Shown here: positions 22,000 through 29,911 of the stretch, in pieces
Layout: each line of letters begins with the position of its first letter
How positions within the stretch are numbered: position 1 is the first letter of the stretch
NCBI RefSeq assembly: GCF_004295685.1
Contig: NZ_AP019368.1
Location: 1,056,364-1,120,363 of the forward strand
Reading direction: 5' to 3'
From: Fluviispira sanaruensis
Lineage (GTDB): Bacteria > Bdellovibrionota_B > Oligoflexia > Silvanigrellales > Silvanigrellaceae
Length of the DNA: 64,000 bases
The notes under the pieces: generated by a model
What the model was told of the DNA's origin: nothing
Databases searched by the model: none
The model's input: only the letters and a program-made list of their open reading frames with translations
Program-made: the position numbers and the translations under genes

Positions 22000-23460
22000 A
22001 TGAACTCAGTTTTTTCAAAAGAAATAAAAGAAGAATATATATTAATTCATTTAGATGATGATCCATTTGAGTTAAAAAACTTTGCCCGGAAAATACAAGC
22101 GAATAAGAAAAATATTTCTTTTAAAATTATTTCAGTTGTTAATTTATTTGATTTTAAGAGGTTAATTCGATCCTTTAAAAAAATTGATTTTGCTATCCTA
22201 GATATATTTCTATCGGAAAAAGATCATAAAAATGGCATATCAATCGTAGCGGAATTAAGAGAATTGCATCCTGAAATTATTGTGCTTATGAGTTCAAACT
22301 TAGATGATCCTGACTCCGTCTTACAAAGTCTTAAAGGTGGAGCAGACGAATTTCTTTCCAAAAAATCAAAAACAAAAAATATTGTTGAAAAGATTTTATC
22401 CATAAGAAAATCTGCTTATTTAAAAAGAGGAATTGATCATAAAAATAAATTAACTTCCCCAGGTAACCAGATTGAAAAAATCAATTTTGCTGGGGCGTCT
22501 TTAAACAAAGTTAACATACGTATTCCACAAATTATCAACTCCGCCATCACTTCCGTTTATGTTGAAGGCGAATCCGGAACAGGCAAAGAAATTGTTGCAG
22601 ATTTATTTTCTTCTTTCGTTCTGAATGCTCCTTTTATTAAAATCAATTGCGGGAGCATAGCGCCAAGCCTGCTCGAAAGCGTTCTGTTTGGTTATGTGAA
22701 AGGCGCATTTACCGGAGCACACACGCATAAATCGGGTTTACTGGAAGATGCCAACGGTGGATGGTTGTTTTTAGATGAAGTGGCGAGTTTATCCGCCAAT
22801 GCCCAAGTCGCCCTCTTGCGTGTTTTAGAAAATCAAGAGGTCACAAGGATCGGAGAATCCACTCCCCGGAAAATAAATGTCCGCTTTATCGCTGCCTCCA
22901 ACATTCCTCTCAGCACTCAAGTTGAAAAAGGCGAATTTCGCAATGACCTCTGGCAAAGACTCTGTGAAACCGAAATTTTATTAAAACCCTTGCGCGAACG
23001 AAAAAAAGAAATCCCCGATCTCATCTTATTTTTCTGCCAAACTATGCAAGGTGGGCCTTATCGGATTGAAAAAACCGCCATGAATGTCCTTTGTCAATTG
23101 CCCTGGGATGAAGGCAATGTGCGTGAACTGCGCAATTGCCTGCGCGCCATGACCGAACATCAGACCGATAAAGTCTTATCCCCCATGGGTATCCCAGAAA
23201 GAATTTTAGAAAAATCTAAAAAACAAGACAAACAAAATGCAACTGAAATAGATTTTAAAGACAGAATTATTATCAATACATCCGATGAAAATGGAGAAAA
23301 TCTCACTTTCAATCAAATGTGTGATGAGCTTTTACAACAGTATCTATCAAAATTTTATCCCAACAAAATAAATTTAAGTGCTGCCGCAAAAAAACTCAAA
23401 ATAGCGCGCAGCACATTGCAAATTAAATTAAAAAAAAGGGTGCATAAATCATCAGTTTGA
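22000..23460 (+). CDS. Sigma-54-dependent transcriptional response regulator (NtrC family: REC, AAA+ and HTH)
   Basis: It has an N-terminal receiver, GESGTGKEIVADLF Walker A, GAFTGA, the GNVRELRN sensor motif, and a C-terminal Fis-type HTH (LSAAAKKLKIARSTLQIKLKK). Confidence 0.85.
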   Translation: MNSVFSKEIKEEYILIHLDDDPFELKNFARKIQANKKNISFKIISVVNLFDFKRLIRSFKKIDFAILDIFLSEKDHKNGISIVAELRELHPEIIVLMSSNLDDPDSVLQSLKGGADEFLSKKSKTKNIVEKILSIRKSAYLKRGIDHKNKLTSPGNQIEKINFAGASLNKVNIRIPQIINSAITSVYVEGESGTGKEIVADLFSSFVLNAPFIKINCGSIAPSLLESVLFGYVKGAFTGAHTHKSGLLEDANGGWLFLDEVASLSANAQVALLRVLENQEVTRIGESTPRKINVRFIAASNIPLSTQVEKGEFRNDLWQRLCETEILLKPLRERKKEIPDLILFFCQTMQGGPYRIEKTAMNVLCQLPWDEGNVRELRNCLRAMTEHQTDKVLSPMGIPERILEKSKKQDKQNATEIDFKDRIIINTSDENGENLTFNQMCDELLQQYLSKFYPNKINLSAAAKKLKIARSTLQIKLKKRVHKSSV

Positions 23461-23527
23461 TTTTTTTTTACATTAATATTTTTTTTAAATCATCAGTTTG
23501 TATTTTCTAAACTTCATCTGGGTATGC

Positions 23528-23594
23528 GTCATGTTAGGGGCTTCGATGGGCAGAGTTGCTGGCCGCAAATGCCCATCGAAGCCCCTAACATGAC
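23528..23594. repeat. Perfect 25-bp inverted repeat (stem-loop) with a 17-nt loop, GC-rich in an AT-rich context
   Basis: The left arm is gtcatgttaggggcttcgatgggca, the loop is gagttgctggccgcaaa, and the right arm is tgcccatcgaagcccctaacatgac. Confidence 0.85.
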
Positions 23595-23650
23595 TCCCCC
23601 CTCTGAGTTATAATATTCGTCAATCTGCTGAATTGTTCAGACAATGTCGC

Positions 23651-23727
23651 TTAAAATGAACACTGATGATTTATGCTAAGTAGCTTTACGTATGCAACGT
23701 GCTGTGAATTAAAATGAACACTGATGA
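23651..23727. repeat. Two identical 19-nt direct repeats, ttaaaatgaacactgatga, 58 bp apart
   Basis: Exact copies lie at 23651-23669 and 23709-23727. The related ataaatcatcagtttg (reverse-complement-like core actgatga) occurs at 23443-23458 and 23487-23502, with the first copy overlapping the regulator stop codon. Confidence 0.8.
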
Positions 23728-23842
23728 ATAAAGTAAAAGCACAGCAATAAAGCAGAGTGAAAAAAATGAAGTTCCGTAAAAAACAATTTGAAAATATAAG
23801 TTAGCTTATTTAGCATAATAAACACGAAAAAAAAGCTTGAAC

Positions 23843-27450: not shown

Positions 27451-27530
27451 TTTCTTTTACCGAGGATTAAAAGAAAAAATGAAAAACTTATATATTTAAA
27501 TCCCCCCAAAAAAAACACTTCGCGAAATTA
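27451..27530. repeat. Dispersed repeat B, a copy of repeat A (23971-24052) in the same orientation
   Basis: tttaccgaggattaaaagaaaaaatgaaaaacttatatatttaaatccccccaaaaaaaacacttcgcgaaat is about 80% identical to repeat A. It sits at the 3' end of the four-gene cassette. Confidence 0.75.
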
Positions 27531-28793
27531 CTTAAGCTGACTTTTTGCCTGCTCATTATTAACAGGATTCTTTGTTAAATTTGATGAAGGTTTTTTGAAA
27601 CTATTTATTATTAATAAAATAAAGATAACCAATAGCAGAAAAAGACAGACAGCACCGCTCACGCTCCATATGCGAGGGAGAAGTGACTTTTCGCTAGAAA
27701 ATATTTCCAATGCCTTGCTTCCCCAGAATATACCTATGCCAGTTCCCAGTGCCTCAAACAAAGTTGCGGTGCTAAACACAATTCCACTTTGGTTTTTTGA
27801 TCCAAGAGAGGCTAAATAAGAATCTGCAATGGGTGCAGAAATGACCTCAGAAATTGTAATCAAAATACATAAAATAAAAACACACAATATTGGGTTTATG
27901 AAACTTGCTGTCAGGCTAAGAAACACATACGAAAATGCAAAAATTGAAACGCCAATAATAAAAAGCAATGATTTGTTAAATTTCTCGATTGCCCTATATT
28001 TATTGTAGCATAAATACATGACTGGGATAACGATAAGAGCTTGGATCGAAAAAAATCCTGAGGCAAGTTTCACATTTTCGAAGTAATGAAGACAAAAATA
28101 CGAAAAGCAAAAAATCAGCATTTGCAATAGGGCGAACTGAATCACGTAGGCCAGCATAAACAACAGAGTCTCTGTTTTTAAAAAAAGTTTTATATTTATT
28201 GTAAACTTCTTAGCCAATCGATTTTCATTGCTGACAGAATTTTGCATGGGGAGTATAAGAATCAAGCTTAATAAATGAAAAAATGCAGTTAGTATAAGAA
28301 AATATGTTATTTCGTTGCTATTAGGAAACAAAGCTATTGATGCTGGTCCAACAATTGTACCTAAATTGGAAGCAATGTTAAGTTGTGAGTATGAACGAAC
28401 GGATATATTATCAAGTTTATTTGCAATAATTGACTTATAAGCTGTCCCCTGCGATGCAGAGGAAACAATTCTAATAAAAACAAAAAAGCAGGCTGCAAGC
28501 GAGGCATCTTTGGGAATAAAGATAAGGGCAGAAACTGCGAGCATGCTTACAAGATTTGCATAAATTATGAAATATTTTCCACCATATTTGTCGACCAAGG
28601 CTCCTAAAGGAAATGAAACGAATCTAGAAATAACAACAAATATCCCGATAGATATGCCTACGGTTTGAAGTCCCACTTTGAAGTATGAAGTCATAATAAT
28701 GGCGAGAAAAGGAAACAGCGAATAGTACGCTGCCTGACTGAAAAATCGTGATGTAAGCAATAGATAGTCAGATTGTTTCTCATTCTTTACCAT
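27528..28793 (-). CDS. MFS transporter
   Basis: It has 12 TM segments and the MFS-like motif GALVDKYGGKYF. The start is ambiguous among Met 1, 8 and 13 of the listed ORF, and I chose Met13. Confidence 0.7.
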   Translation of the reverse strand: MVKNEKQSDYLLLTSRFFSQAAYYSLFPFLAIIMTSYFKVGLQTVGISIGIFVVISRFVSFPLGALVDKYGGKYFIIYANLVSMLAVSALIFIPKDASLAACFFVFIRIVSSASQGTAYKSIIANKLDNISVRSYSQLNIASNLGTIVGPASIALFPNSNEITYFLILTAFFHLLSLILILPMQNSVSNENRLAKKFTINIKLFLKTETLLFMLAYVIQFALLQMLIFCFSYFCLHYFENVKLASGFFSIQALIVIPVMYLCYNKYRAIEKFNKSLLFIIGVSIFAFSYVFLSLTASFINPILCVFILCILITISEVISAPIADSYLASLGSKNQSGIVFSTATLFEALGTGIGIFWGSKALEIFSSEKSLLPRIWSVSGAVCLFLLLVIFILLIINSFKKPSSNLTKNPVNNEQAKSQLK

Positions 28794-29349
28794 GATATTC
28801 TCCGACATGGGGGCAAAGATCTCGATCATTAATATAAATACCTATTTTCATATTTTCCCAATTTTCCCAAGAAATATTCCTTCCAGGATATGCAACTCTT
28901 TTGAATGACCATTCATTTTTAATGAAATGAAGTATGTTTTTATAAACTTCATCATCGATAGAAATATTATTTTTTGCAACCGTCCAAAATAAAATTTGCG
29001 CATCATAATATAATTTTCTAAGGTCTAGGTCAGTTTTAACTTTTATTGGTTTTATATAGATACAGCCTAAATATTCCCGCGAATTTTTAGATAGAATGCA
29101 AAATGTAAAAGATTTTTTTTCGTCAAATTCTTTTTCATGTCTTTTTATGCTTATTAGATTATCTGCATACGTTAAAGAAGCCGAAGCCCAATTATCATTA
29201 CCGCCAAAAACATTTTGGATCTCATTGAGACTACCCATGACAGTTTTGTAATCAATATCAGCATACTTTTCGTTTAATTTTGAGAAAATATAATTATCTA
29301 TAAAATATTCTTCATTTACAATTTGTTGTTCTGAAATAAAATTTGCCAT
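28780..29349 (-). CDS. Hypothetical protein, possibly a GNAT-like acetyltransferase fold
   Basis: The ATG at 29349 (MANFISEQQ) has an AGGAA RBS, whereas the listed ORF extends upstream. The weak GNAT-like core is FTFCILSKNSREYLGCIYI. Confidence 0.3.
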   Translation of the reverse strand: MANFISEQQIVNEEYFIDNYIFSKLNEKYADIDYKTVMGSLNEIQNVFGGNDNWASASLTYADNLISIKRHEKEFDEKKSFTFCILSKNSREYLGCIYIKPIKVKTDLDLRKLYYDAQILFWTVAKNNISIDDEVYKNILHFIKNEWSFKRVAYPGRNISWENWENMKIGIYINDRDLCPHVGEYHGKE

Positions 29350-29627
29350 TCTGCGTTCCTTTTTTTCTTTAGTTAAATATGAATTAAAATAAATCCGTTT
29401 ACTTAATTGTCTTAAACAAGTAAAAAAAAAATTATTAGATTCAATTTGTATGAAAATCACAAAAAATATACTGAAAATATTTTATTATGGATAAAAAATA
29501 AGTATTTATTATTAAATTTTTTATCAAAAAATAACTTACTAAAATTAAATTTGTAATAAAATTTTGTCAAGGATGAGATGCATGATTTTTAATTCTTATC
29601 TCAAATCCTCGCAATTTAGGAATGAGT

Positions 29628-29670
29628 GAAAACTCCGCAGTGACCCAAAAAAACGATTTTAAAATATAAG
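29628..29670. repeat. Dispersed repeat C2, the partner of C1
   Basis: See repeat C1. Confidence 0.8.
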
Positions 29671-29911
29671 TTGCCGATTTATCCAAATTCTATCGAATAA
29701 AGTTTGAACAAAGCAACCGAAATTATCCCAAAAATTATTTTTTTGGGAATATATTATTTAGAAAGATCAATTCATGCAGGCGATTAAATAAATTTTTAAT
29801 TCCAAATTTGACAAATTATTTTAAAAAATCTATTAAATATAAATCGGTATAAATTATACTCAGTTTATTAAATCTTCATCTTAACTTCAATAAATTTTTC
29901 TGGATATACAA

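What the first reader, a model, noticed from the sequence alone, without database searches (positions are those of the whole stretch)
23443..29911. Very AT-rich accessory block bracketed by two nested pairs of dispersed direct repeats, with no integrase
There are two independent repeat families, both in direct orientation. C1 (23843-23884) pairs with C2 (29628-29670) at about 90% identity. A (23971-24052) pairs with B (27451-27530) at about 80% identity. Together they bracket a segment of much lower GC than the flanks. That segment carries four co-directional secreted or lipoprotein genes of unknown function, plus a convergently oriented MFS and GNAT-like pair. The inner A/B pair precisely frames the four-gene cassette, since B begins 11 bp after the last stop. 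I do not see an integrase, transposase or tRNA. It could be a recombination-mobilisable cassette, a MITE-flanked insertion, or a remnant island whose mobility gene was lost. The repeats may also be regulatory or REP-like elements.
Basis: seen in the sequence. Interest (0 to 1): 0.7.

Follow-up and report, generated by a model that had tools for sequence, protein, structure and literature searches.

The report
Gene cassette inserted into intergenic repeat
A 3.4-kb three-gene module of unknown function landed in a variable spot of the Fluviispira sanaruensis chromosome and split a small tandem intergenic repeat, so the "flanking repeats" are most likely a by-product of the insertion rather than the ends of a mobile element; this is an ordinary kind of genome plasticity.

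Summary
The repeats are real, but each "pair" has a third copy: C0 beside C1, and a copy D of the A/B family 34 kb away. The window is Fluviispira sanaruensis. In Silvanigrella aquatica the sigma-54 regulator gene (window 22000-23460) directly abuts a convergent SKI gene (window 33546-34373). So everything from 23461 to 33545 is material accumulated at one insertion hotspot. F. multicolorata carries 1.9 kb there, F. vulneris about 6.5 kb and F. sanaruensis 10.1 kb. No synteny break coincides with C1 or C2. The inner cassette (24141-27440) sits at a different locus in F. multicolorata, without repeats. A and B are best read as two neighbouring units of a 96-bp tandem repeat. The left half of unit 2 (24049-24077) lies left of the cassette and its right half (B) lies right of it. 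An 11-bp duplication, ATTTCTTTTAC, marks both junctions. The block has no integrase, transposase, tRNA, terminal inverted repeats or attC. The "four genes" are three, because the first is split by a TAA codon. "GNAT-like" is unsupported and the AT-richness is modest. Verdict: a hotspot free of mobile-element genes, with a cassette that is decaying. Whole-genome repeat copy number could not be measured.

The parts
22000..23460 (+). Sigma-54-dependent response regulator gene. It is the conserved left flank of the hotspot.
   Evidence: Pfam Sigma54_activat 2.1e-51, Response_reg and AAA_lid_14. It is syntenic in F. vulneris, F. multicolorata and S. aquatica.
22338..23595 (.). Tract of about 5% divergence from the close relative L006, against a 0.1-0.3% background. 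It is probably an imported homologous-recombination tract that ends at the left edge of the variable region.
   Evidence: 64 of the 191 differences between window 12-32 kb and L006 fall in this tract.
23528..23594 (.). A 67-nt hairpin with perfect 25-nt arms. A partial inverted copy of its core lies at 23929-23958.
   Evidence: I6, I4. Folding gives -58.8 kcal/mol with z = -9.5. L006 carries a compensatory T>A / A>T change that keeps the palindrome perfect.
23755..23809 (+). C0, a third copy of the C family, in tandem with C1 at 84-bp spacing.
   Evidence: the repeat finder D2/D10; nhmmer E = 1.3e-10.
23839..23893 (+). C1. It reads like a promoter: GTGACC, 18 nt, TATAAG.
   Evidence: The promoter-like reading comes from the sequence only and is an inference.
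23909..23983 (+). Strong hairpin followed by a U7 run. It looks like a terminator and has U-rich tails on both strands. Its 3' half is p1.
   Evidence: Folding gives -32 to -41 kcal/mol, z = -4.3 to -5.1.
23953..24048 (+). Tandem unit 1.
   Evidence: It aligns collinearly, 80 of 103 columns, with 24049-24077 joined to 27462-27527.
24049..24077 (+). p2, the left half of tandem unit 2. It was separated from its right half by the insertion.
   Evidence: It scores 41 against p1 (26-nt gapless match at 88%). No other p1-like sequence occurs on either strand of the window.
24067..24077 (+). Left copy of the 11-bp junction duplication ATTTCTTTTAC. The right copy is at 27451-27461.
   Evidence: An exact shared stretch of at least 10 nt between 40-nt neighbourhoods at this spacing occurred in 9 of 3000 random trials.
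24078..27450 (+). The inserted segment of 3.37 kb: a 63-nt linker, the cassette, and a 10-nt linker.
   Evidence: Defined by the split of tandem unit 2.
24141..27440 (+). The cassette proper, made of a promoter region and three genes. It is 79.5% identical in nucleotides to F. multicolorata L001 9418-12730, which lies at another locus after rpsL-rpsG.
   Evidence: The homology ends at the final stop codon.
24334..26058 (+). Gene 1, a secreted coiled-coil protein of about 560 aa. It is interrupted by an in-frame TAA at 24733-24735, which produces the 133-aa and 418-aa ORFs.
   Evidence: The family has 506 clusters and no Pfam match. AF2 gives pLDDT 79 for the intact paralogue P0004.
26110..26916 (+). 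Gene 2, a predicted lipoprotein with the lipobox IVSC near its N-terminus.
   Evidence: Translation. It is conserved next to gene 1 in L001, L004 and L003. L006 carries an in-frame stop at codon 176.
26916..27440 (+). Gene 3, a protein with an N-terminal membrane anchor, rich in Lys, Asn and Glu.
   Evidence: Translation. It is conserved in L001, L003 and L004.
27528..28829 (-). MFS transporter gene. It is shared with F. vulneris, where it carries a 289-bp internal deletion, and is absent from this site in F. multicolorata and S. aquatica.
   Evidence: Pfam MFS_1 1.2e-18.
28780..29460 (-). No family match was found.
   Evidence: An ortholog of 178 aa exists in F. vulneris.
29624..29679 (+). 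C2. It lies in the divergent intergenic region 240 nt upstream of the ABC exporter gene. The whole intergenic region cannot be aligned with F. vulneris.
29912..31699 (+). ABC exporter gene. It still lies inside the hotspot, being absent from this site in F. multicolorata and S. aquatica.
   Evidence: Pfam ABC_membrane and ABC_tran.
33546..34373 (-). SKI-domain gene, the conserved right flank of the hotspot.
   Evidence: It is 68% identical in amino acids to the S. aquatica gene that directly abuts the regulator. Synteny with L009 resumes at 33546.
61713..61798 (-). D, the third copy of the A/B (p-q) family. It lies in the convergent intergenic region between folE2 and a LepB_N gene. Its CCC-A8-C end abuts the folE2 stop codon, just as B abuts the MFS stop codon.
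   Evidence: It is present in the close relative L012. Most of it is absent from the F. vulneris orthologous intergenic region.

Best explanation
The block is part of a chromosomal insertion hotspot that carries no mobile-element genes. The hotspot lies between two conserved convergent genes, the sigma-54 regulator and the SKI-domain gene. In the Fluviispira lineage it has filled up through successive nested insertions.

The most recent visible event in the F. sanaruensis lineage was the insertion of a 3.37-kb segment. That segment carries one copy of a three-gene envelope module (a secreted coiled-coil protein, a lipoprotein and a membrane-anchored protein) which is found in several copies across Silvanigrellales. 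It landed inside the second unit of a pre-existing 96-bp tandem intergenic repeat (p-q-p-q) lying just downstream of the MFS gene.

The insertion separated p2 from q2 and left an 11-bp duplication, ATTTCTTTTAC. I infer that the mechanism was microhomology-dependent illegitimate recombination, or a staggered break, rather than a dedicated recombinase. On this reading A and B are neighbours that were pushed apart, not attachment sites.

The C copies are a second small repeat family specific to this lineage. They look like sigma-70-type promoter modules, and they mark no boundary. The cassette itself appears to be decaying.

Shown:
- the hotspot and its empty site;
- the relocation of the cassette;
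- the collinear split of tandem unit 2;
- the third copies of both repeat families;
- the lack of mobility genes.

Inferred:
- the order of events;
- the recombination mechanism;
- any function of the repeats.
For: 1. Empty site. In S. aquatica the regulator is followed 8 bp later by the convergent SKI gene, and the window ortholog lies at 33546-34373. The inserts are graded in size: 1.9 kb in F. multicolorata, about 6.5 kb in F. vulneris and 10.1 kb here.
2. Cassette relocation. Window 24141-27440 is 79.5% identical to L001 9418-12730, which lies between rpsG and a Ble-like gene. The homology ends at the last stop codon. That is similar to the divergence of flanking orthologs, 75-77%.
3. Split tandem unit. 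Unit 1 (23953-24048) aligns across the junction with 24049-24077 joined to 27462-27527, matching 80 of 103 columns. ATTTCTTTTAC is present at both junctions. p1-like sequence occurs nowhere else in the window.
4. No A/B or C copies flank the cassette in F. multicolorata or occur in any other relative locus.
5. Copy D, 34 kb away, is not associated with a cassette.
6. There is no recombinase or tRNA.
7. A tract of 5% divergence in the regulator gene ends at the edge of the hotspot. This matches published hotspots that lack mobile elements and show homologous recombination in flanking core genes (PMC5635113).
8. Decay. Independent TAA codons interrupt gene 1 in this genome (codon 134) and in F. 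multicolorata (codon 116), and gene 2 has a stop codon in L006.
Against: - The intact p-q-p-q state has not been seen in any genome. F. vulneris has unrelated genes where it would lie.
- The 63-nt and 10-nt linkers between the junction duplication and the cassette homology are unexplained.
- The 11-bp duplication is T-rich and could be chance, at about 0.3% in my control.
This includes the paralogous cassette at JCM31447_22610. Genome-wide copy number of p-q and C, and their association with other cassettes, is therefore unknown.
- All three dispersed repeat families detected in the 64-kb window have at least one copy in this block's intergenic regions. That concentration is not fully explained by a passive model.
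- The role of C1/C2 remains unexplained.
Confidence: 0.6

Rival explanations
1. A/B, and perhaps C1/C2, are recombination sites of a cassette that can be mobilised. Homologous or site-specific recombination between the direct repeats would excise a circle carrying the genes, and the circle could re-insert elsewhere.
For: The repeats are direct, nested and non-random. The cassette lies at different loci in two species. B starts 11 bp after the cassette's last stop codon. All three dispersed repeat families detected in the window have at least one copy in this block's intergenic regions.
Against: The F. multicolorata copy has no such repeats. A ends 91 bp before the cassette homology begins, and the p half of unit 2 sits between them. 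A and B are only about 78% identical over about 75 nt, which is a poor substrate for RecA. Copy D flanks no cassette. C1 and C2 match no synteny break. No recombinase gene lies in or near the block.
Confidence: 0.1
2. The p-q (A/B/D) and C sequences belong to small dispersed intergenic repeat families, either REP/BIME-like or MITE-like, that spread in the F. sanaruensis lineage. Their presence around the cassette would only reflect the fact that new intergenic DNA in a hotspot attracts such elements.
For: There are three copies of each family in 64 kb. They are absent from F. vulneris, F. multicolorata and S. aquatica loci. D lies in an intergenic region that differs from the F. vulneris ortholog. 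B and D occupy the same position, abutting the stop codon of an antisense gene. Unit p carries a hairpin.
Against: The repeats have no terminal inverted repeats, and folding of the q core is no better than shuffled sequence (z about 0). No copies were found in metagenome or viral collections. The 3' end of D (T-run followed by GGG after the folE2 stop codon) is also present in F. vulneris, so D is not a clean insertion. Copy number beyond the window is unknown.
Confidence: 0.2
3. The repeats are functional cis elements that were duplicated along with regulatory needs. C would be a promoter module (GTGACC, 18-19 nt, TATAAG) that drives a short RNA or the ABC exporter gene. p-q would be a 3'-end or terminator module for convergent genes. 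This reading is compatible with the best explanation.
For: C1 is followed about 25 nt later by a strong hairpin and a U7 run. C2 is followed about 50 nt later by a terminator-like hairpin at 29726-29748. The p hairpins are followed by T-runs. B and D sit directly after stop codons in convergent intergenic regions. The repeats are 98-100% conserved in the close relative.
Against: There is no Rfam match. Promoter-like sites are no more frequent than in shuffles. The elements are not conserved at orthologous positions in F. vulneris. No expression data exist.
Confidence: 0.3
4. The repeats are chance similarities in AT-rich, low-complexity intergenic DNA.
For: The genome is 33% GC. The C1/C2 score was reached by 4 of 1000 Markov shuffles of the right-hand intergenic region.
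Against: The A/B score of 69 was never reached in 2000 shuffles, where the maximum was 45. The only real tile that comes close is D. A 31-34-nt pattern hits exactly A, B and D, with 0 hits expected. nhmmer E-values range from 1e-10 to 1e-19.
Confidence: 0.03

Closest known systems
Horizontal-transfer hotspots that lack recognisable mobile genetic elements (Oliveira et al. 2017, PMC5635113)
   Same: One interval between two conserved core genes holds different gene sets in each genome. It carries no integrase or transposase. There are signs of homologous recombination in a flanking core gene (quotation).
   Different: That concept was defined on many genomes of a single species. Here only five genomes from four species and two genera could be compared, and transfer between cells has not been shown. 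The cassette's divergence is equally compatible with relocation within the lineage.
Minimal mobile elements of Neisseria (Saunders & Snyder 2002, as cited in PMC1797815)
   Same: Alternative whole-gene cassettes occupy a syntenic position between conserved flanking genes, with no mobility genes of their own (for the concept; here).
   Different: Minimal mobile elements are exchanged by natural transformation within a species and replace each other cleanly. Here the inserts are nested and cumulative. Competence of Fluviispira is unknown, and one event left an 11-bp junction duplication that points to illegitimate recombination.
Intergenic repeat arrays such as REP/BIME of enterobacteria and the Correia/dRS3 arrays of Neisseria (from my own knowledge)
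   Same: They are short extragenic sequences, partly hairpin-forming. They occur in tandem and dispersed, often lie after gene 3' ends, and are concentrated in plastic regions.
   Different: Only three copies of each family were seen in 64 kb. The q core is not palindromic. No terminal inverted repeats or defined target duplications were seen. A dedicated transposase of the RAYT type could not be searched for in the rest of the genome.
Integron gene cassettes with attC sites (from my own knowledge)
   Same: A compact gene unit is found in different genomic contexts, and a repeat starts immediately after its last stop codon.
   Different: The cassette carries its own promoter region and three genes. 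B has no attC-type imperfect palindrome. There is no intI, attI or cassette array. The F. multicolorata copy lacks the repeat.

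Membership tests
Integrase-type genomic island | A tyrosine or serine recombinase gene at one end | tested here: not met
   Pfam scans of all block ORFs found none. Precomputed Pfam for 10 kb on each side in close relatives lists none.
Integrase-type genomic island | Insertion next to a tRNA or tmRNA gene | tested here: not met
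   ARAGORN found 0 genes in the 64 kb.
Integrase-type genomic island | Direct repeats that coincide with the exact ends of the present/absent segment | tested here: not met
   The synteny breaks are at 23229/33545 against F. multicolorata and at 23436/27592 against F. vulneris. C1/C2 lie at 23.84/29.63 kb and A/B at 23.97/27.45 kb.
Integrase-type genomic island | Composition clearly different from the host genome | tested here: inconclusive
   The block is 29.1% GC against 33.4% for the window. Only two small genes have deviant GC3, and other stretches of the window are lower.
MITE | Terminal inverted repeats | tested here: not met
   No inverted termini were found in A, B, D or the C copies. 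Folding of the A, B and D stretches gave z-scores from about 0 to -3, and the only stems are short hairpins beside the q core.
MITE | Many copies in the genome, each with a target-site duplication | not testable with these tools
   The F. sanaruensis chromosome outside the window was not returned by any collection. There are three copies in 64 kb.
REP/BIME-like extragenic repeats | Extragenic location, often after gene 3' ends | tested here: met
   All copies are intergenic. B and D abut stop codons in convergent intergenic regions.
REP/BIME-like extragenic repeats | An imperfect palindrome as the core unit, and high copy number | tested here: inconclusive
   p forms a hairpin but the conserved q core does not. 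Copy number could not be measured.
Integron cassette | An attC imperfect inverted repeat at the cassette's 3' end, together with intI and attI | tested here: not met
   B folds no better than shuffled sequence (z = -0.08). There is no integrase. The repeat is absent from the F. multicolorata copy.
MGE-free insertion hotspot / minimal-mobile-element-like locus | The same pair of conserved flanking genes with different gene content between them in different genomes | tested here: met
   The regulator and SKI genes are adjacent in S. aquatica. Inserts of 1.9, about 6.5 and 10.1 kb occupy the interval in three Fluviispira species.
MGE-free insertion hotspot / minimal-mobile-element-like locus | No mobility genes in the interval | tested here: met
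MGE-free insertion hotspot / minimal-mobile-element-like locus | Homologous recombination in flanking core genes | tested here: inconclusive
   One tract of 5% divergence (22338-23595) stands against a 0.1-0.3% background in a single pairwise comparison. No population sample was available.

The most novel reading that the evidence does not exclude
The p|q junction of the 96-bp unit, and possibly the C unit, could be a specific capture site recognised by a recombinase encoded elsewhere in the genome. Fluviispira would then have an integron-like cassette platform with no integrase in cis. The unusual concentration of the window's dispersed repeat families in this one hotspot would be its signature.
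Probability: 0.05. Interest if true: 0.6.

Novelty: new member of a known kind. Interest (0 to 1): 0.25.

Why it matters
This case shows that direct repeats on either side of an accessory cassette can be a by-product of insertion into a pre-existing tandem repeat. That is a useful caution when islands are called from flanking repeats alone. It also documents an insertion hotspot, with its empty site, in a little-studied family (Silvanigrellaceae) that includes human wound and blood isolates. Finally, it points to a sizeable secreted coiled-coil protein family with no Pfam match (506 clusters at 50% identity) whose copies here are being inactivated. None of this is surprising to a specialist in bacterial genome plasticity.

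Tried and rejected
- Exact-sequence look-ups of window proteins and of the paralogue P0003 found nothing. The F. sanaruensis assembly is not in that index.
- The single genome-contig scan did not return F. sanaruensis either. The paralogous locus and the genome-wide repeat copy number therefore stayed out of reach.
- The plasmid collection gave no match to the left intergenic region.
- Metagenome scans for the A/B/D and C patterns gave 0 hits. Viral scans for the A/B/D pattern and the hairpin also gave 0 hits.
- Rfam gave nothing at gathering thresholds and only microRNA-like hairpin noise at permissive thresholds.
- No sigma-54 promoter motif lies in the left intergenic region or the cassette leader. 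I therefore dropped the idea that the neighbouring regulator drives the cassette.
- A small peptide ORF in q (MKTYKFK...) was rejected because B is frameshifted relative to A and D (read from the sequence; for ORFs).
- Six-frame ORFs of the 700-bp left intergenic region look non-coding.
- An AF2 model of the 418-aa ORF from a 10-sequence alignment was too poor to use, with pLDDT 44.
- PADLOC, NCBIfam and PDB sequence searches were negative.
- The second cluster of differences from L006, at 28.8 kb, is a (CATATTTT)n expansion plus an assembly gap. It is not a recombination tract.

Full report
**Source and setting**

The 418-aa ORF at 24802-26058 is 100% identical to a Fluviispira sanaruensis protein on a 3.52-Mb chromosome. 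Fluviispira belongs to the Silvanigrellaceae in the Bdellovibrionota. The window averages 33.4% GC. It contains no tRNA and no Rfam family at gathering thresholds.

**Checking the observation**

Both repeat families exist at the stated places.
- C1/C2 align over 23844-23884 and 29630-29670, matching 37 of 42 columns with a core of 30/32.
- A/B align with gaps over 23972-24044 and 27452-27527 at about 78-80%.
- A/B are clearly non-random. Their score of 69 compares with a maximum of 45 in 2000 Markov shuffles.
- C1/C2 are only marginally above a composition-matched null, at 4 of 1000 shuffles. An nhmmer profile of the three C copies nevertheless gives E-values of 1e-10 to 1e-13.

Neither family is a simple pair.
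- C0 (23755-23809) lies 84 bp left of C1.
- A third A/B copy, D (61713-61798, minus strand), lies 34 kb away between folE2 and a LepB_N-domain gene.
- A 31-34-nt degenerate pattern hits exactly A, B and D, with none expected by chance.

A self-comparison of the whole window shows that the only dispersed non-palindromic repeats in 64 kb are C1/C2, B/D and a hairpin core (23548-23577 against 23929-23958). Each of these has at least one copy in the block's intergenic regions.

The compositional claim is only partly right.
- The block is 29.1% GC and falls in the lowest 1.7% of 6.5-kb windows.
- At cassette scale other stretches are lower.
- Only the 268-aa and 174-aa genes have deviant GC3, 0.16-0.17 against a mean of 0.26.

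The "four genes" are three.
- ORFs 24334-24735 and 24802-26058 share a frame and are separated by one TAA.
- Homologues elsewhere are single proteins of 561-566 aa.

MFS is confirmed. "GNAT-like" has no support.

**Comparative genomics: the block is part of a larger hotspot**

The left neighbour is a sigma-54-dependent response regulator. Its orthologs were located in five other places.

| Genome (locus) | What follows the regulator |
|---|---|
| Silvanigrella aquatica (L013) | A convergent SKI-domain gene 8 bp later. The window ortholog is 33546-34373, 68% identical in amino acids. |
| F. multicolorata (L009) | 1.9 kb with one unrelated 253-aa gene. Synteny breaks at window 23229 and resumes at 33546. 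|
| F. vulneris (L008) | About 6.5 kb: four small, partly degraded unrelated genes, then the MFS gene with a 289-bp internal deletion, the unknown ORF, the ABC exporter and a 152-aa gene. Window-specific segments are 23436-27592, 29368-29907, 31696-32440 and 33018-33502. |
| Near-identical relative (GCA_013298585.1; L006, L007) | The same layout as the window, with all repeats. |

So 23461-33545 (10.1 kb) is material that accumulated in steps at one regulator|SKI junction. None of the breaks coincides with C1 or C2. The intergenic region that holds C2 cannot be aligned with F. vulneris, although the flanking genes are 86-89% identical.

**The cassette**

- Window 24141-27440 is 79.5% identical to F. 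multicolorata L001 9418-12730. There the same module sits after rpsL-rpsG, right behind the rpsG terminator.
- The homology starts about 190 bp upstream of the first start codon and stops at the last stop codon.
- This identity is close to that of flanking orthologs between the two species, 75-77%. The data therefore fit an old module that changed place. They do not demand recent transfer from outside.
- The module is a large secreted protein, a lipoprotein and a membrane-anchored protein. It recurs in a second F. multicolorata locus (L004) and in a distant Oligoflexia MAG (L003).
- F. sanaruensis has a second, equidistant paralogue, P0003.
- The large protein belongs to a family of 506 clusters at 50% identity with no Pfam domain.
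- An AF2 model of the intact paralogue P0004 (pLDDT 79) shows a signal peptide, a small beta unit, a hairpin of two helices of about 80-90 residues each, and a mixed head.

The cassette looks as if it is decaying.
- Gene 1 carries a TAA at codon 134 here and an independent TAA at codon 116 in F. multicolorata.
- The F. sanaruensis paralogue is annotated without its first 65 or so residues.
- Gene 2 has an in-frame stop codon in L006.

**What A and B are**

The 96 nt at 23953-24048 consist of two parts. The first is p1 (CTGCCCTGAAAGGATGCTCTTTTTTTAC), which forms the 3' half of a strong hairpin.

Immediately to their right lies p2 (24049-24077). It scores 41 against p1 (26-nt gapless match at 88%), and it is the only other p-like sequence on either strand of the window. 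After p2 the similarity stops and the cassette segment begins.

Unit 1 aligns collinearly with p2 joined to q2 over 80 of 103 columns.

The last 11 nt of p2, ATTTCTTTTAC, are present at both junctions (24067-24077 and 27451-27461). A shared stretch of at least 10 nt at such paired positions occurred in 9 of 3000 random trials.

The simplest reading is this:
- A tandem p-q-p-q array lay directly downstream of the MFS stop codon.
- The 3.37-kb segment 24078-27450 inserted at the p|q boundary of its second unit, with an 11-bp duplication.
- A and B are therefore neighbours that were pushed apart.

This explains three things:
- B starts 11 bp after the cassette's last stop codon.
- A does not touch the cassette.
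- The F. multicolorata copy has no such repeats.

The mechanism is my inference. I favour microhomology-dependent integration of a fragment or circle, or repair of a staggered break.

**What the p-q and C families might be**

- B and D have the same relation to a gene on the opposite strand. Their CCC-A8-C end abuts the stop codon of MFS and of folE2 respectively, in convergent intergenic regions.
- D is present in the near-identical relative. It is largely absent from the F. vulneris orthologous intergenic region, which instead holds about 960 bp with UCH gene fragments. The T-run followed by GGG right after the folE2 stop codon is shared, however.
- The q core has no predicted structure beyond chance.
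- p1 is part of a hairpin plus U7 at 23909-23983, which looks like a bidirectional terminator.
- The C copies read as GTGACC, 18-19 nt, TATAAG. C1 and C2 are each followed within 25-50 nt by a terminator-like hairpin. This is suggestive of promoter modules or short RNAs but is untested.
- No copy of either family was found in about 150 kb of loci from other species, in metagenome contigs or in viral contigs.

**Recombination at the flank**

Against the near-identical relative, the background difference is 0.1-0.3%. Yet 64 differences fall in 22338-23595, which covers the 3' two-thirds of the regulator gene and the first hairpin. This looks like an imported tract ending at the hotspot edge. [quoted passage not shown] The locus also resembles the minimal mobile elements of Neisseria (PMC1797815).

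**Verdict**

This is an insertion hotspot without mobile-element genes. It holds a relocated, decaying three-gene module that split a small tandem intergenic repeat. The repeat families are new but low in copy number as far as can be seen, and they have no demonstrated role in mobility.

The main gap is that the rest of the F. sanaruensis genome could not be searched. For that reason I give the best explanation a confidence of 0.6, leave about 0.2 for a REP/MITE-like family, and leave about 0.05-0.1 for a true recombination-site role.

Noticed in passing
window 24733-24735; L001 9980-9982; L006 14649-14651: Three separate in-frame stop codons hit the same module in different lineages. Gene 1 has a TAA at codon 134 in F. 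sanaruensis and another at codon 116 in F. multicolorata, only 18 codons apart in the coiled-coil linker. Gene 2 has a stop at codon 176 in the close relative. The F. sanaruensis paralogue P0134 also lacks its N-terminus. This is either plain decay or recurrent selection to switch the module off.
   Followed up: partly
window 23528-23594 and L006 11541-11607: The 67-nt perfect hairpin differs from the close relative by a compensatory pair of changes, T>A at 23535 and A>T at 23587, which keeps the palindrome perfect. It is not followed by a U-run and has no Rfam match.
   Followed up: partly
window 23446-23459 and 23487-23500: Two direct copies of AAATCATCAGTTTG, the first overlapping the last codons of the regulator gene, both read AAATCCTCAGTTTG in the close relative, so they changed in concert. 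Inverted partners (ACTGATGA) at 23653-23676 and 23709-23727 are unchanged.
   Followed up: no
window 22338-23595: About 5% divergence from the close relative stands against a 0.1-0.3% background. It is probably a recombination tract in the sigma-54 regulator gene.
   Followed up: partly
window 61881-62816 (minus strand); L011 6785-7650: The window has a 311-aa protein with a LepB_N domain (Pfam 1.1e-13), a domain named after a Legionella effector. In F. vulneris, fragments of a UCH (ubiquitin hydrolase) gene lie next to its ortholog. These are eukaryote-interaction-type domains in a genus with clinical isolates.
   Followed up: no
L008 12893-13610: In place of the cassette, F. vulneris carries two adjacent small ORFs. 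One has a weak Peptidase_C70 (AvrRpt2-like) / C39 match, which suggests a degraded cysteine protease gene.
   Followed up: no
L006 16871-16921 (equivalent to window ~28850): The close relative has about nine tandem copies of CATATTTT followed by a run of N, where the window has one to two copies, inside the 3' end of the unknown ORF. This is either a simple-sequence expansion or an assembly artefact.
   Followed up: no
window 31696-32440: This 745-bp segment holds a 112-aa ORF and is replaced by 79 bp in F. vulneris. It is a further small lineage-specific insertion inside the same hotspot.
   Followed up: no
P0004 and alignment A4: The large cassette protein belongs to a family of 506 clusters at 50% identity, with no Pfam domain in the 45 members scanned and no PDB relative. 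The confident AF2 model has a hairpin of two helices of about 80-90 residues each.
   Followed up: partly
L012 12150-12872: A serine recombinase (Resolvase, PF00239) gene lies about 3 kb beyond the right end of the window in the close relative, 37 kb from the block. I have no reason to link it to the block.
   Followed up: no
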